From Escherichia coli (GTDB lineage Bacteria > Pseudomonadota > Gammaproteobacteria > Enterobacterales > Enterobacteriaceae): DNA of 64,000 nucleotides. Within the stretch, counting starts at the first letter, position 1. The number at the start of each line of letters is the position of its first letter. The stretch lies in assembly GCF_024298765.1 (NCBI RefSeq), contig NZ_CP101210.1. One strand, 5' to 3'. Both the position numbers and the translations under genes were made by a program. This document shows, in pieces, positions 36,990 to 46,000 of this stretch. Below the pieces are notes generated by a model, which worked only from the letters and a program-made list of their open reading frames with translations, made no database searches and was not told the DNA's origin.

Positions 36990-37130
36990 AAAAGCTTGCC
37001 GGATGCGGCGTGAACGCCTTATCCGGCCTACCGACCCGCACCGATTGTAGGCATGATAAGACGCGCATGCGTCGCATCAGCGCACGAACGCCTGGTGCGG
37101 CACGAACGCCTTATCCGCCTGAAAACATTA
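36990..37130. repeat. REP/BIME palindromic repeats
   Basis: gccggatgcggcgtgaacgccttatccggcctac ... cggcacgaacgccttatccgcctg, several REP-like units between phoH and efeB. Confidence 0.65.
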
Positions 37131-38399
37131 AACCCGCAATAACGCGCTTCCGAGATAATCGTTCGTGTCCTTCACCCCCGGCAGCGCAAAAAAATAACCG
37201 CCGCCGATAGGTTTAACGTATTCCTCCAGCGCTTCGCCATTGAGCCTTTTTTGTACTGTCAGGAAGCCTTTTTCCAGATCGTGTTGATAGCAGACAAACA
37301 GTAGCCCCATATCCAGTTGTCCGGAGTTGGTGACGCCCAACGAATAACTGTAGCCACGACGCAGCATCAGACTTGACTCACTCTCTGGCGTGCGGGGATT
37401 CGCCAGCCGGATATGGCTGTCCAGCGCAATCACCTTCCCTTCCGGATCGCTGGCGTAATCGGGAACATCATGCTCATGCTGCATTCCCAGCGGCGCGCCG
37501 GTTTGCTTATCACGCCCAAATATCGTCTGCTGTTCTTTCAGCGGCGTTCTGTCCCAAAATTCCACCCGAAACTGAATCAACCGCACCGCCTGGTAGCTGC
37601 CGCCGATTGTCCACGCAGGCTCCTGCTGATCTGCCGTCACCCACACCACTTTTTGCATCAACTTATCATTCTGGCTATCGGGATTGGCAGTGCCGTCTTT
37701 GAAACCCAGCAAATTAATCGGCGTCTCTTTGCCTTTACTACGCGCCGCGTGATCGGAAATAAACCCTTCCCGCTTCCAGCGCACACTGAGCAAATCCGGC
37801 GTGTGTTTGATGATATCGCGCAGCGCATGGATCACCGTATCCTGGGTGTTGGCGCAAATTTGTAGCAACACATCACCATGACATAATGCTGCATCAAGCG
37901 AGTCGTTGGGGAAACGCGTCATCTTCTGCAACTTTTTCGGCATCTGTGGCGCAAGACCAAACCGTTCATCAAACAACGAGTGACCCACCGATAACGTGAT
38001 GGTGAGATTATCGGGCGCAATGTAGCCGCCAAGAATGCCGGAATCGAGTGGTGGCAGGCGCGGATTTGGCGTTTCTGGTGCCGCTCCGCCCTGAGTCAGA
38101 AAAGCAAAACGCTGAGTCAACAAGCGAAACAACCGTTCAAGATCGGCTTTATCGCTGGCAAGCACATCAAACGCCACCAGCATCATTGCAGCCTGTTGTG
38201 GTGTCAGGATCCCTGCCTGATGCTCACCATAAAACGGCTGTTTCTCATTGCGTGCATCCGGTGAAAGCGTACCCGGCGCACTTTGCGTTTTTTGTGCATG
38301 AGCGACCGGACAACTTCCCGCCAGCGCCAGTGCACCAATCCCTTTCAGTAAACGTCGGCGTGACGGTTCATTCACGCCGTTTTCATCTTTATACTGCAT
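37128..38399 (-). CDS. efeB: Dye-decolorising peroxidase EfeB (Tat-secreted, haem)
   Basis: 423 aa [35 protein letters not shown]... with a Tat-type twin-arginine signal. Confidence 0.93.
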
Positions 38400-38404
38400 A
38401 ACGT

Positions 38405-39532
38405 TTAATCCAGTCCCAGCACACCGCGAAGTTGCGCCAGATCTTCCGCCAGCGCAGTAATCGGTCCTTTCAGTGCATTCCGGTCGGCATCGGTCAATTT
38501 GTCGTAGGTTTCAAAACCGTCTTTAGTACGGTATTTCGCCAGAATGGTATCGACCTTTTTAAAGTTGGCATCGACTTTTGCCAACAGTTCCGGGTTGGCT
38601 TTTTGCAGTTGTGGACGCAGTAGATCGACAATTTTCTGCGAGCCTTCAACGTTAGCCTGGAAATCCCACAGATCGGTGTGGCTGTAGCGATCTTCTTCAC
38701 CGCTGATTTTGCTGGCTGCCACTTCCTCAATCAGTCCGGCTGCACCGCCGACCACTTTTGAAGGTGGGAAAGCCAGTTCACTGATGCGTTTTTGCAAATC
38801 GACCACATCGGTATAAAGCTGGTCAGCGTACTTATCCATTCCTTTGGTGGTGTTGTCGCCAAACAATGCTTTTTCCAGACGGTGGAAACCGGTGAATTTT
38901 GGATCGGCGGCTTTTTGCTCATAATCATCTTCACGGGCGTCAATGCTACCATCCAGATCGGAGAACAGTTCAGCAATCGGTTCAATGCGCTCATAGTGCT
39001 GGCGCGTCGGCGCATACAGTGCTTTTGCTTTTTCGATATCGCCTGCTTTAATAGCGTCGGTAAAGGCTTTGGTGTCGGCCACCAGCTGCGTGGTTTCCGC
39101 CATGACATACGCTTTATATGCAGTAATTGCACCACCAAGACTTAACAGCGCATCACTTTGCGCCGCATCCGCCGTTGCCTCACCTTTGACAATCAACTTC
39201 CCTTTCGGGTTAGTCAGCAGACCGCAGGTCATATCGTATTCGCCAGGCTGTAAATTCGCCGTCATTTTCTGGCTAAAGCCAGGGGCGATATTTTCTCGCT
39301 CTTCCACCACCATCACGCCTTTGAGGATCTCCCACTCCAGCGCCTTCTGGCTGTGGTTCTGAATAATGAACTGTGTTTTCCCGGCGTTAACCGTAATGGT
39401 CATCGGTTCGCACTGCTTATCCGTCACGGTGACTTTGACTTGCGGCACATCAGCGGCGTTAGCCATAAAAGCGGAAGAAAACAGCACAGCCACACTCAAC
39501 TGCAATGCGTTACGGCGGAAGTTAATGGTCAT
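38405..39532 (-). CDS. efeO: Periplasmic iron uptake protein EfeO
   Basis: 375 aa [43 protein letters not shown].... Confidence 0.93.
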
Positions 39533-39589
39533 GACGAGACTATCCCTTTAAAGTATGTTGTAACTAAGCAAGAGTTTGCGTCGTATTTG

Positions 39590-40420
39590 CTACGCAGAGC
39601 GAGACGCTGTCGCCCCTGCACGTGGTGGCAGGGCAAATGCCACCAGCGCCGGGATGAGATAAATAAACCAGACGGCGACTTCGCTGACACTTGGCGCTTC
39701 CTGATAGCCAAAAATCCCTTCCATCAGCGTGCCAAACAGCGAGTGAGTTGACAGCACCGCGCTCATATCGAAGGCGATTTCCTGAAAGTGGTTCCACAAT
39801 CCGGCTTCATGAAATGCGCGAATGGCACCAGCTGCCAGCCCAGCGGCGACGAAGAGAATAAACAGACTGGTCCATTTAAAAAATGCACCAAGATTGAGGC
39901 GAATACCGCCCCAGTAGAGCAGGAAGCCGAGCACCACGGCTGTAGCAAGACCGAGCATTGCACCCAGCGGCGGCCAGATCCCGACATCTTGTTGAAATGC
40001 CGCCAGCAGGAAAAAGACCGACTCCAGCCCTTCCCTTGCAACGGCAAAAAAGACCATCATCACCAGCGCCCAGCCATGATGATTTCCACGCTGCAATGCG
40101 CTATCGACTGCCTGTTCCAGTTGCACTTTGACGTTGCGCGACACTTTACGCATCCAGAAAACCATCCAGGTAAGGATCACCACGGCGATCACCGCCACGA
40201 TACCTTCAAACAGTTCCTGTTCTTTTTGCGGGAATTCGCCGGTGGTTTCGTTAATGAAGATACCCAAGCCCAGGCACAACGCAGCGGCAAGCAACACGCC
40301 AATCCACATCACACTAATCCATCGGCCTCGCTGGGTACGCTTAAGATAGCTGGCAATCAAACTGACAATCAGCGCGGCTTCAAGTCCTTCGCGCAACATA
40401 ATGAGAAACGGAACAAACAT
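39590..40420 (-). CDS. efeU: Ferrous iron permease EfeU (FTR1 family), intact
   Basis: ORF 39590..40429 (-); start MFVPFLIMLREGLEAALIVSLIAS...; two REGLE-type motifs (REGLEAA, REGLESV); uninterrupted frame of about 276 aa. Confidence 0.9.
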   Translation of the reverse strand: MFVPFLIMLREGLEAALIVSLIASYLKRTQRGRWISVMWIGVLLAAALCLGLGIFINETTGEFPQKEQELFEGIVAVIAVVILTWMVFWMRKVSRNVKVQLEQAVDSALQRGNHHGWALVMMVFFAVAREGLESVFFLLAAFQQDVGIWPPLGAMLGLATAVVLGFLLYWGGIRLNLGAFFKWTSLFILFVAAGLAAGAIRAFHEAGLWNHFQEIAFDMSAVLSTHSLFGTLMEGIFGYQEAPSVSEVAVWFIYLIPALVAFALPPRAGATASRSA

Positions 40421-40477
40421 GCCACCCACCCTTAAACGTTTTTCTGAGTCAATCTATGCAAAGAAAAGTAAATCGCA

Positions 40478-40497
40478 GTGATAGCGATTATCATTAC
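40478..40497. promoter_or_regulatory. Candidate Fur box in the efeU promoter region
   Basis: gtgatagcgattatcattac resembles the GATAATGATAATCATTATC Fur consensus, about 60-80 bp upstream of efeU. Confidence 0.4.
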
Positions 40498-41073
40498 GGC
40501 AAAGAAAAATACAAGCGGAATGTTTATAAAATGATGTTGGAATGTAAACAAAGAGAGGTAATGGCAGGGGATATAAACGATTATTCCAGGTACAAAGATG
40601 GGATTGTTTACAACGAGCCATGTGTTCTTGCCAGATGCCGCGTAAACGCCTTATCCAGCCGACAAAACTGTCCAGACTCAATGCATCAGAGCTTCCATGT
40701 AAAACTGATAAGCGGGTGTATCAAGCAATTTCGTCCATCCGCGATTATCAAATCTAACTTTTTGCCCGGAACATAATAACAGCTCGGGTGTTGGTGGCGT
40801 CAAAGTCGCTGAAGCGTTCCCCGAAGGCCGGGGCAGCCCACATGGATGTGGGCTGAGGGCGCGTCTTACAGGACATTACCTCGCGCCCGACCCGGTAGCC
40901 GAAGGGGATAAGCTGAAGGTACCGCGCAGCGGCGATTTTGTTCGCCAGAGCCCGGGGTGCAGGGGGTGGCGGCGATTGGCCGCCCCCTGCACCATTCAAT
41001 TTATATGGCGAGGCACATTAAGGGAGCGCAACCCGCTGCTGAAGCCAAACAAAACCGCCGCAGGCTAAGTCCC

Positions 41074-42582
<1,509 letters not shown>

Positions 42583-43004
42583 CTAAAGTCTCCAAAAAAT
42601 TATTATCGGCAATGTCGAAACTTGCCGTTATATCTGCCACCGGAACGGGGTAACAGAGTTTATGTTTTACCAGGGCGACCGTATCCTGCCGGAAGCGCTG
42701 GTTATTCACAATCGATTTAACACACCATTTACATTAAATTTTAGTGCTCAGCGACACTATTTTTCATCAGGTTGCACTCTCTCACATTTTTTGCGGTTGC
42801 ACCTTTCAAAAATGTTAACTGCCGCAGAGAAAAAGTCTGAGTTATTTTTTTAATCCCTGTCATATCGATTTCGTTTATTAACATTTCATTCATTTTTAAG
42901 CTTGCTACGCAGGTCACATTTAACACAGTTGCACAAAGTTGCAACATCATGGATATTTCACGATAACGTTAAGTTGCACCTTTCAGAACAACAGGAGTAA
43001 TGGC
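42583..43004. promoter_or_regulatory. Divergent putP/putA control region with PutA operator motifs
   Basis: Five GTTGCA motifs at 42771, 42796, 42928, 42938 and 42973 in an AT-rich intergenic region; GTTGCA is the known PutA recognition motif. Confidence 0.75.
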
Positions 43005-46000
43005 ATGGGAACCACCACCATGGGGGTTAAGCTGGACGACGCGACGCGTGAGCGTATTAAGTCTGCCGCGACACGTATCGATCGCACGCCACACTGGTTA
43101 ATTAAACAGGCGATTTTTTCTTATCTTGAACAACTGGAAAACAGCGATACTCTGCCGGAGCTACCTGCGCTGCTTTCTGGCGCTGCCAATGAGAGCGATG
43201 AAGCACCGACTCCGGCAGAGGAACCACACCAGCCTTTCCTCGACTTTGCCGAGCAAATTTTGCCCCAGTCGGTTTCCCGCGCCGCGATCACCGCTGCCTA
43301 TCGCCGTCCGGAAACCGAAGCGGTTTCGATGCTGCTGGAACAAGCTCGCCTGCCGCAGCCAGTTGCTGAACAGGCGCACAAACTGGCGTATCAACTGGCC
43401 GATAAACTGCGTAATCAAAAAAACGCCAGTGGTCGCGCAGGTATGGTTCAGGGGTTATTGCAGGAGTTTTCGTTGTCATCGCAGGAAGGCGTGGCGCTGA
43501 TGTGTCTGGCGGAAGCGTTGTTGCGTATTCCCGACAAAGCCACCCGTGATGCGTTAATTCGCGACAAAATCAGCAACGGTAACTGGCAGTCACACATTGG
43601 TCGTAGCCCGTCGTTGTTTGTTAATGCCGCCACCTGGGGGCTGCTGTTTACCGGCAAACTGGTTTCCACCCATAACGAAGCCAGCCTCTCCCGCTCGCTG
43701 AACCGCATTATCGGTAAGAGCGGTGAACCGCTGATCCGCAAAGGTGTGGATATGGCGATGCGCCTGATGGGCGAGCAGTTCGTCACTGGCGAAACCATCG
43801 CAGAAGCGTTAGCCAATGCCCGCAAGCTGGAAGAAAAAGGTTTCCGTTACTCTTACGATATGCTGGGCGAAGCTGCACTGACCGCCGCAGATGCACAGGC
43901 GTATATGGTTTCCTATCAGCAGGCGATTCACGCCATTGGTAAAGCGTCTAACGGTCGTGGCATCTATGAAGGTCCGGGCATTTCAATCAAGCTGTCGGCG
44001 CTGCATCCGCGTTACAGCCGCGCCCAGTATGACCGGGTAATGGAAGAGCTTTACCCGCGTCTGAAATCACTCACCCTGCTGGCGCGTCAGTACGATATTG
44101 GTATTAACATCGATGCCGAAGAGGCCGATCGTCTGGAGATCTCCCTCGATCTGCTGGAAAAACTCTGTTTCGAGCCGGAACTGGCAGGCTGGAACGGCAT
44201 CGGTTTTGTTATTCAGGCTTATCAAAAACGCTGCCCACTGGTGATTGATTACCTGATTGATCTCGCCACCCGCAGCCGTCGCCGTCTGATGATTCGCCTG
44301 GTGAAAGGCGCGTACTGGGATAGTGAAATCAAGCGCGCGCAGATGGACGGCCTTGAAGGTTATCCGGTTTATACCCGCAAGGTGTATACCGACGTTTCAT
44401 ATCTCGCCTGTGCGAAAAAGCTGCTGGCGGTGCCGAATCTAATCTACCCGCAGTTCGCAACGCATAACGCCCATACGCTGGCGGCAATTTATCAACTGGC
44501 GGGTCAGAACTACTACCCGGGTCAGTACGAGTTCCAGTGCCTGCACGGTATGGGCGAGCCACTGTATGAGCAGGTCACCGGGAAAGTTGCCGACGGCAAA
44601 CTTAACCGTCCGTGTCGTATTTATGCTCCTGTCGGTACCCATGAAACGCTGCTGGCGTATCTGGTGCGTCGCCTGCTGGAAAACGGTGCTAACACCTCGT
44701 TTGTTAACCGTATTGCTGACACCTCTTTGCCACTGGATGAACTGGTTGCCGATCCGGTCACTGCTGTAGAAAAACTGGCGCAACAGGAAGGGCAAACTGG
44801 ATTACCGCATCCGAAAATTCCCCTGCCGCGCGATCTTTACGGTGACGGGCGCGACAACTCGGCAGGGCTGGATCTCGCCAATGAACACCGGCTGGCCTCG
44901 CTCTCTTCTGCCCTGCTCAATAGTGCACTGCAAAAATGGCAGGCCTTGCCAATGCTGGAACAATCGGTCGCGGCTGGTGAGATGTCGCCCGTTATTAACC
45001 CTGCGGAACCGAAAGATATTGTGGGCTTTGTGCGTGAAGCCACGCCGCGTGAAGTAGAACAGGCGCTGGAAAGTGCGGTTAATAACGCGCCAATCTGGTT
45101 TGCCACTCCTCCGGCTGAACGCGCGGCGATTTTGCATCGCGCTGCTGTGCTGATGGAAAGCCAGATGCAGCAACTGATTGGTATTCTGGTGCGTGAGGCC
45201 GGAAAAACCTTCAGTAACGCCATTGCCGAAGTGCGCGAAGCGGTCGATTTTCTCCACTACTACGCCGGACAGGTGCGGGATGATTTCGCTAACGAAACCC
45301 ACCGTCCATTAGGGCCTGTGGTATGTATCAGTCCGTGGAACTTCCCGCTGGCGATTTTCACCGGGCAGATCGCTGCCGCACTGGCGGCAGGTAACAGCGT
45401 ACTGGCAAAACCGGCAGAACAAACGCCGCTGATTGCCGCGCAAGGGATCGCCATTTTGCTGGAAGCGGGTGTACCGCCAGGCGTGGTGCAATTGCTGCCA
45501 GGTCGGGGTGAAACCGTGGGCGCGCAACTGACGGGTGATGAACGCGTGCGCGGGGTGATGTTTACCGGTTCAACCGAAGTCGCTACGTTACTGCAGCGCA
45601 ATATCGCCAGCCGCCTGGACGCTCAGGGTCGCCCTATTCCGCTCATCGCTGAAACCGGCGGTATGAACGCGATGATTGTCGATTCTTCAGCACTGACCGA
45701 ACAGGTCGTCGTGGATGTACTGGCCTCGGCGTTCGACAGTGCAGGCCAACGTTGTTCGGCGCTGCGCGTGCTGTGTTTACAAGATGAAATTGCCGACCAC
45801 ACGTTGAAAATGCTGCGCGGCGCAATGGCCGAATGCCGGATGGGTAATCCGGGTCGCCTGACCACCGATATCGGTCCGGTGATTGATAGCGAAGCGAAAG
45901 CCAATATTGAGCGTCATATTCAGACTATGCGTAGTAAAGGCCGTCCGGTGTTCCAGGCGGTGCGGGAAAACAGTGAAGATGCCCGTGAATGGCAAAGCGG

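What the first reader, a model, noticed from the sequence alone, without database searches (positions are those of the whole stretch)
39590..40420. efeU reading frame is intact
EfeU reads through as an uninterrupted ~276 aa permease with both REGLE-type motifs. I recall K-12 efeU being a frameshifted pseudogene, so this points to a non-K-12 lineage with a functional EfeUOB ferrous iron system. A candidate Fur box lies upstream at 40478-40497.
Basis: partly seen in the sequence, partly recalled or inferred. Interest (0 to 1): 0.3.

Follow-up and report, generated by a model that had tools for sequence, protein, structure and literature searches.

The report
Intact efeU iron permease gene
This is the ordinary, unbroken form of the E. 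coli efeU iron-permease gene with its partner genes efeO and efeB; the broken copy in the laboratory strain K-12 is the known exception, so the finding is correct but not new.

Summary
Window 39590-40420 (minus strand) is an uninterrupted 831-nt, 276-aa efeU. REGLE motifs lie at residues 10-14 and 129-133. The protein scores above the curated cut-offs of the EfeU and FTR1 models. Intact efeO and efeB follow it.

K-12 MG1655 efeU is annotated "frameshifted". It lacks one base at CDS nucleotide 106 (window 40315), which gives a stop after 36 codons. The window has an A there (Ser36), and most E. coli have a G (Gly36).

The exact K-12 deletion 61-mer occurs in 368 of 5379 matching complete genomes; the 60 listed are nearly all laboratory K-12 derivatives. 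The window's allele occurs in 70 genomes, many from poultry or avian-pathogenic strains. The window is therefore not from K-12.

EfeU is 275/276 identical to the O157:H7 protein, whose system is reported to be functional. Function here is inferred, not shown.

The proposed Fur box is real as a sequence match, 15/19 at 40480-40498. It is the best match in the 64 kb and is invariant across five compared E. coli sequences. It overlaps a candidate -10 hexamer.

All of this is published biology (Grosse 2006; Cao 2007). Interest is low.

The parts
39590..40420 (-). efeU CDS, 831 nt, 276 aa. It is an intact FTR1/OFeT-family iron permease.
   Evidence: ORF listing. NCBIfam EfeU equivalog 332 bits against a 255 cut-off. 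Pfam FTR1 E 1e-89. RefSeq annotation of identical sequence in strains 104 and G12. Protein is 275/276 identical to O157:H7 EfeU.
40379..40393 (-). First REGLE motif (aa 10-14), inside the first hydrophobic segment
   Evidence: Motif scan and hydropathy; coordinates read from the sequence.
40022..40036 (-). Second REGLE motif (aa 129-133), in the fourth predicted membrane segment
   Evidence: Motif scan; coordinates read from the sequence.
40313..40315 (-). Codon 36, AGT (Ser). Window base 40315 is the position deleted in K-12. Most E. coli have GGT (Gly) here.
   Evidence: Alignment A1, codon comparison, allele counts, homologue column.
40480..40498 (-). Fur-box-like site CGTAATGATAATCGCTATC (15/19 to the consensus)
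   Evidence: Best match in the 64-kb window; 0.155 sites of this quality expected per shuffle. Invariant in the window, K-12, O157:H7, SE15 and N96. A Fur box was detected computationally upstream of efeU, which was upregulated in serum, in ExPEC (PMC4145685).
40487..40514 (-). Candidate sigma-70 promoter: -35 TTGTAT (40509-40514), 16-nt spacer, -10 GATAAT (40487-40492). The -10 lies inside the Fur box.
   Evidence: Relaxed hexamer scan. The site lies in the about 110 bp conserved across lineages. The stricter tool scan found no promoter, and no start site was mapped here, so this is an inference.
40458..40472 (-). CpxR-box-like TTTAC-N5-TTTGC, one mismatch to the inverted GTAAA-N5-GTAAA
   Evidence: Pattern scan. 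The site is invariant across lineages. efeU is listed as negatively regulated by CpxR (PMC9600279; PMC4145685). Whether this site is the one bound is an inference.
38405..39532 (-). efeO, 375 aa, periplasmic protein with cupredoxin and M75 (imelysin) domains
   Evidence: NCBIfam EfeO 772 bits; Pfam Cupredoxin_1 plus Peptidase_M75. Protein is 372/375 identical to O157:H7 EfeO.
37128..38399 (-). efeB, 423 aa, DyP-type haem peroxidase/deferrochelatase with a twin-arginine signal (SRRRLLK)
   Evidence: TIGR01412 617 bits; Pfam Dyp_perox N and C domains. Protein is 417/423 identical to O157:H7 EfeB. The Tat motif is read from the translation.

Best explanation
The region is the standard, intact efeUOB operon of a non-K-12 E. 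coli.

efeU encodes a roughly seven-helix inner-membrane permease of the Ftr1p/OFeT family. Its two REGLE motifs are the iron-translocating glutamate motifs. efeO encodes a periplasmic protein with cupredoxin and M75 domains. efeB encodes a Tat-exported DyP haem peroxidase.

From established knowledge of the family, the three proteins import ferrous iron. Iron is probably oxidised in the periplasm and handed to EfeU. The system is most active at acid pH.

Transcription is most likely repressed by Fe2+-Fur at a Fur box that overlaps the -10 hexamer. It is probably modulated by CpxR at a box just downstream.

The K-12 pseudogene is a lineage-specific one-base deletion at codon 36, and the window does not carry it.

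What is shown here: the intact frame, the family membership, the operon organisation, the site of the K-12 lesion, the allele frequencies, and the conservation of the promoter-proximal sites. What is inferred: transport activity, regulator binding, and the promoter position.
For: efeU frame and family:
- The frame is intact at exactly the stated coordinates.
- All three proteins score above curated family cut-offs.
- There are six hydropathy peaks plus the REGLE-bearing fourth segment, consistent with 7 TM helices.

K-12 lesion:
- The K-12 lesion was located at CDS nt 106.

Allele counts:
- The K-12 deletion 61-mer is exact in 368 genomes. The Gly36 61-mer is exact in 3638 and the window's Ser36 61-mer in 70.
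- The B2 representative SE15 differs only by an adjacent synonymous change.

Sequence conservation:
- Window against O157:H7 efeU shows 19 synonymous and 1 non-synonymous difference, which indicates purifying selection.
- EfeU, EfeO and EfeB are 99% identical to the O157:H7 proteins.

Regulatory sites:
- The Fur box is the best match in the window and is conserved across divergent lineages, although the spacer further upstream is not.

Literature:
- K-12 efeU is frameshifted, and the system works once the frame is restored or in O157:H7 (PMC2808357; PMC7549933; PMC9174327).
- efeU is under Fur and CpxR control (PMC4145685; PMC9600279).
Against: The one amino-acid difference from the O157:H7 protein, G36S, lies at a position that is Gly in 107 of 120 homologue cluster representatives. 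A mild effect on function therefore cannot be excluded. The strict promoter scan found no sigma-70 site, so the promoter assignment rests on a relaxed match. The substrate and chemistry of EfeOB are themselves debated in the literature: ferrous iron oxidation or haem deferrochelation (PMC3577903).
Confidence: 0.92

Rival explanations
1. The gene is intact but the permease is impaired or altered, because the lineage-specific G36S change sits at the cytoplasmic edge of TM2, at a mostly conserved glycine. On this reading an open frame does not mean a working transporter.
For: Position 36 is Gly in 107 of 120 homologue cluster representatives. Ser36 is derived and is found in only 70 of 5379 genomes.
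Against: The position is not invariant. Pro, Ala, Asp, Asn and Ser also occur in homologues. Gly to Ser is a small, conservative change outside the REGLE motifs. The allele is fixed in a lineage of about 70-80 genomes with no further non-synonymous changes relative to O157:H7. efeO and efeB remain intact.
Confidence: 0.05
2. The Ser36 allele is a secondary restoration. An ancestor carried a K-12-like one-base deletion at this spot, and the frame was repaired by insertion of an A.
For: The variant base occupies the exact nucleotide missing in K-12. For a single change in 831 nt this is an a-priori coincidence of about 1 in 800.
Against: The window's efeU haplotype differs from K-12 at 14 synonymous sites, whereas K-12 is close to O157:H7 with 5. 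The two events therefore lie on different backgrounds. A G-to-A transition is the simplest single step. All listed carriers of the K-12 deletion are nearly all K-12 laboratory derivatives.
Confidence: 0.02
3. The intact frame is an artefact of sequencing or assembly of the window.
For: None found.
Against: The same 61-mer is exact in 70 independently assembled complete genomes. The 24-kb neighbourhood is about 100% identical in more than 25 genomes.
Confidence: 0.01

Closest known systems
EfeUOB (YcdNOB) of E. coli O157:H7 and Nissle 1917 (Cao et al. 2007, PMID 17627767; Grosse et al. 2006, PMID 16987175)
   Same: The operon order efeU-efeO-efeB is the same, as is the chromosomal position between putP and phoH. 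EfeU, EfeO and EfeB are 275/276, 372/375 and 417/423 identical. The promoter-proximal 100 bp is identical, including the Fur box.
   Different: EfeU differs by the single substitution G36S. The putP-efeU spacer differs: O157:H7 carries an extra 1344-bp hypothetical gene there, and the window carries a longer TRIP1 repeat.
K-12 efeU pseudogene (ycdN, cryptic)
   Same: It is the same locus and has the same promoter. Apart from the frameshift it has no non-synonymous differences from the window, leaving codon 36 aside.
   Different: K-12 lacks one base at CDS nt 106 and terminates after residue 36. The window is intact.
Yeast Ftr1p-Fet3p oxidase-dependent iron transporter (OFeT family)
   Same: Both are FTR1-family permeases with two REXLE motifs and about seven membrane helices (PMC9174327).
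   Different: The yeast partner is a multicopper ferroxidase, Fet3p. Here the periplasmic partners are EfeO (cupredoxin plus M75) and the DyP peroxidase EfeB.

Membership tests
EfeU / FTR1 (OFeT) iron permease | Full-length match to the family profile above the curated cut-off | tested here: met
   NF041756 EfeU equivalog 332 bits (cut-off 255). TIGR00145 351 bits (cut-off 303.8). PF03239 300.9 bits covering residues 1-275.
EfeU / FTR1 (OFeT) iron permease | Two REXLE (REGLE) motifs in membrane helices 1 and 4 | tested here: met
   REGLE at aa 10-14 and aa 129-133.
EfeU / FTR1 (OFeT) iron permease | About seven transmembrane helices | tested here: inconclusive
   A Kyte-Doolittle scan gives six clear peaks. 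The REGLE-bearing segment around residues 116-140 falls below the threshold. This is consistent with 7 TM helices, but no dedicated topology predictor or structure was used, and no solved homologue exists in the PDB.
EfeU / FTR1 (OFeT) iron permease | Uninterrupted reading frame, unlike the K-12 pseudogene | tested here: met
   831 nt with no stop. The alignment with K-12 shows the extra base at nt 106.
EfeUOB tripartite system | Operon with efeO (cupredoxin plus M75) and efeB (Tat-exported DyP peroxidase) immediately downstream | tested here: met
   efeO is at 38405-39532 and efeB at 37128-38399, on the same strand, with gaps of 57 and 5 bp. Family scores are far above the cut-offs. EfeB carries SRRRLLK.
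EfeUOB tripartite system | Iron (Fe2+) uptake activity, stimulated at low pH | not testable with these tools
   Inferred only from 99% identity to the O157:H7 proteins, whose activity is reported in Cao 2007 as cited in PMC7549933 and PMC9174327.
Fur regulon promoter | Match to the 19-bp Fur box near the promoter, more than expected by chance and conserved | tested here: met
   The match is 15/19 and is the single best site in the 64 kb, against 0.155 expected per shuffled window. It is invariant in five divergent E. coli sequences.
Fur regulon promoter | Fur binding and iron-dependent repression | not testable with these tools
   The literature lists efeU as having a computationally detected Fur box and as CpxR-regulated (PMC4145685; PMC9600279). 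No binding assay was done for this sequence.

The most novel reading that the evidence does not exclude
The only amino-acid difference from the reference functional EfeU, G36S, falls on the very nucleotide that is deleted in K-12. It is confined to about 70 complete genomes, many of them from poultry or APEC. The most novel reading not excluded is that this spot is a mutational hotspot or a functionally tunable site of the permease. The spot lies in TGGATTGGTGTG, part of an imperfect 12-bp direct repeat that encodes WIGV-M-WIGV at the start of TM2. On this reading the Ser36 allele changes transport properties in that lineage.
Probability: 0.04. Interest if true: 0.25.

Novelty: already known. 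Interest (0 to 1): 0.07.

Why it matters
It matters little beyond annotation. The window's strain carries the normal, presumably working EfeUOB iron-uptake system that most E. coli have. K-12 lost it through a single-base deletion described in 2006-2007. The result is useful for typing the window as not K-12 and for annotating efeUOB as intact. It opens no new question. The Ser36 allele is a minor lineage marker.

Tried and rejected
- I looked for a solved structure of an EfeU relative to place residue 36. None was found in the PDB by sequence.
- The strict sigma-70 scan found no promoter in 39400-41200. I fell back on a relaxed hexamer scan, which gave two candidates. I preferred TTGTAT-16-GATAAT. 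The alternative, TTGTTT-17-TATAAA at 40523-40551, is much less conserved in SE15 and N96, where its -10 hexamer reads TATCAC and its -35 hexamer also differs.
- An Rfam scan of 36500-43200 found only sub-threshold REP-type (naRNA4) hits and no regulatory RNA in the efeU leader.
- I could not retrieve Cao 2007 itself. Its content is cited second-hand from open papers.
- I considered reversion of a K-12-type frameshift as the origin of Ser36. I rejected it as unparsimonious on haplotype grounds.
- The antisense ORF 39788-40435 (+, 215 aa) and the other overlapping ORFs were treated as mechanical by-products of the efeU frame. None of them is annotated in the identical genomes.
- I did not enumerate pseudogene flags across all 5,400 genomes. 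The 61-mer allele counts were used as a proxy, and about 1,300 genomes have a neighbouring SNP that keeps them out of the exact-match classes.

Full report
**Observation**

The ORF table shows one long open frame on the minus strand at 39590..40429, 279 aa from a GTG. The ATG at 40420 gives an 831-nt, 276-aa product beginning MFVPFLIMLREGLE. They are also the coordinates RefSeq uses for efeU in genomes identical to the window here: strain 104 and strain G12.

REGLE occurs twice, at residues 10-14 and 129-133. The protein matches the NCBIfam EfeU equivalog at 332 bits (cut-off 255) and TIGR00145 at 351 bits (cut-off 303.8). It matches Pfam FTR1 end to end. Hydropathy gives six clear membrane segments plus the charged REGLE-bearing fourth one. 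This is consistent with the seven-helix Ftr1p topology described in the literature (PMC9174327).

**Neighbourhood**

efeO lies 57 bp downstream of efeU at 38405-39532. It is 375 aa with a cupredoxin domain and an M75/imelysin domain. efeB follows 5 bp later at 37128-38399. It is a 423-aa DyP peroxidase with an SRRRLLK twin-arginine signal. Both score far above their curated cut-offs.

Upstream are putP and the divergently transcribed putA. Downstream is phoH. This is the usual E. coli arrangement csg-ycdXYZ-ghrA-serX-phoH-efeBOU-putP-putA-rut.

**Comparison with K-12**

A megablast of 1.4 kb around efeU hit 5417 of 5426 complete E. coli genomes. In MG1655 the gene is annotated as an 830-nt pseudogene, "frameshifted".

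An alignment of the window, MG1655, strain 104 and O157:H7 OK1 shows a single gap in K-12 at CDS nucleotide 106, which is window base 40315. The K-12 reading then ends after 36 residues...RWIV*. The window has A at that position (AGT, Ser36). O157:H7, SE15 and N96 have G (GGT, Gly36).

**How common each state is**

I searched 61-mers centred on the site, where only an exact match reaches 99% identity or more.

| 61-mer | Genomes with exact match |
|---|---|
| K-12 deletion version | 368 of 5379 |
| Gly36 version (O157:H7 type) | 3638 of 5397 |
| Window's Ser36 version | 70 of 5379 |

- All 60 K-12-version matches listed are nearly all K-12 laboratory derivatives such as MG1655, DH5alpha, C600, J53 and BW25113.
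- The Ser36 matches include many chicken, turkey and APEC isolates, among them O78:H4 strains.
- The remaining genomes carry a neighbouring SNP. The B2 strain SE15, for example, has an adjacent synonymous GTA.

An intact efeU is thus the norm, and K-12 is the exception. Over 24 kb the window is about 100% identical to the same group, which includes many poultry and APEC genomes. K-12 is 97.9% identical over the 1401 bp compared around efeU. The window is not from K-12.

**Is the system functional?**

This cannot be tested here. The following observations bear on it:
- EfeU is 275/276 identical to the O157:H7 protein, EfeO 372/375 and EfeB 417/423.
- Window against O157:H7 efeU differs at 19 synonymous sites and 1 non-synonymous site, a clear signature of purifying selection.
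- The literature states that the K-12 system is inactive because of the efeU frameshift. It also states that an in-frame operon restores growth under iron restriction (PMC2808357; PMC7549933; PMC9174327). All three papers cite Grosse 2006 or Cao 2007, which I could not retrieve directly.

The single substitution G36S lies just before the second membrane segment, residues 38-56. In 120 homologue cluster representatives at 80% identity or more, that column is Gly in 107. Pro, Ala, Asp, Asn and Ser also occur. I judge the permease most likely functional, with about a 5% chance that Ser36 impairs it.

**Mechanism**

This part rests on established knowledge and is marked as inference for this sequence. 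EfeU is the inner-membrane permease of an oxidase-dependent iron transporter related to yeast Ftr1p. The REXLE glutamates line the iron path. EfeO and the Tat-exported haem peroxidase EfeB act in the periplasm. The system takes up ferrous iron and is stimulated at low pH (PMC9174327). An alternative role for EfeB in extracting iron from haem has been reported (PMC3577903).

**Regulatory region**

The best match in the whole 64-kb window to the 19-bp Fur consensus GATAATGATAATCATTATC is CGTAATGATAATCGCTATC at 40480-40498 (-), 15/19. Dinucleotide shuffles of the window give 0.155 such sites on average. One falling within 80 bp of the efeU start is therefore not chance.

The site is invariant in the window, K-12, O157:H7, SE15 and N96, although only the last 110 bp or so before the ATG is conserved between these lineages.

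A relaxed hexamer scan finds TTGTAT-16 nt-GATAAT, with the -10 hexamer (40487-40492) inside the Fur box. It also finds a CpxR-like TTTAC-N5-TTTGC at 40458-40472 just downstream. This layout fits repression by Fur and by CpxR, both reported for efeU (PMC4145685; PMC9600279). The strict promoter scan found nothing, and no transcription start was mapped here. The promoter placement is therefore an inference.

**Comparison with what is known, and verdict**

Everything here matches the published EfeUOB (YcdNOB) system. The finding is a correct annotation call and a correct lineage inference, not a discovery.

The only mildly curious point is that the lineage's single amino-acid change sits on the very nucleotide deleted in K-12. 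The two events lie on different haplotypes: the window differs from K-12 at 14 synonymous sites, whereas K-12 differs from O157:H7 at 5. I therefore treat it as a coincidental G-to-A transition. Novelty: already known. Interest: low.

Noticed in passing
window ~40776-41032 (insert relative to K-12 at ~40827-40960): The putP-efeU spacer is 653 bp here, 543 bp in K-12 and 219 bp in SE15 (B2) and N96. The extra segment relative to K-12 is the internal part of a TRIP1 repeat. K-12's copy at this locus (TRIP1b) is described as an internally deleted form, so the window carries a longer copy. The 134-bp piece occurs at a median of 3 places per E. coli genome.
   Followed up: partly
window 40313-40315: The lineage-specific Ser36 codon (AGT) lies on the exact nucleotide deleted in K-12. 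The site is within an imperfect direct repeat, TGGATTGGTGTG / TGGATTGGCGTG, which encodes WIGV-M-WIGV. It is probably a coincidence, but a local mutational hotspot was not excluded.
   Followed up: partly
window 40471-40489 (-): A short hairpin, AATCGC...GCGATT followed by a T-rich run, was flagged as terminator-like. It lies between the candidate -10 hexamer and the efeU start and overlaps the Fur and CpxR-like sites. It may simply reflect operator dyad symmetry.
   Followed up: no
window 36994-37120: There are REP/BIME-type elements downstream of efeU's partner efeB, seen as sub-threshold Rfam naRNA4 hits at 39-43 bits against a gathering score of 59.5. A weaker hit lies at 40624-40660 in the putP-efeU spacer.
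   Followed up: no
window ~32600-35200 (from L004 4614-7157): In the closest genomes, an IS3-family transposase and a DUF2726 gene sit between tRNA-Ser with two RtT sRNA copies and phoH. This looks like a lineage-specific insertion next to the tRNA.
   Followed up: no
L003 610-1953 (O157:H7 OK1): O157:H7 carries a 1344-bp hypothetical gene inserted between putP and efeU, on the opposite strand. It is absent from the window and from K-12.
   Followed up: no
E. coli genome search: Seven matches to the efeU region lie on records labelled as plasmids, and a few genomes have two copies. I did not examine whether these are mislabelled replicons or real duplications.
   Followed up: no
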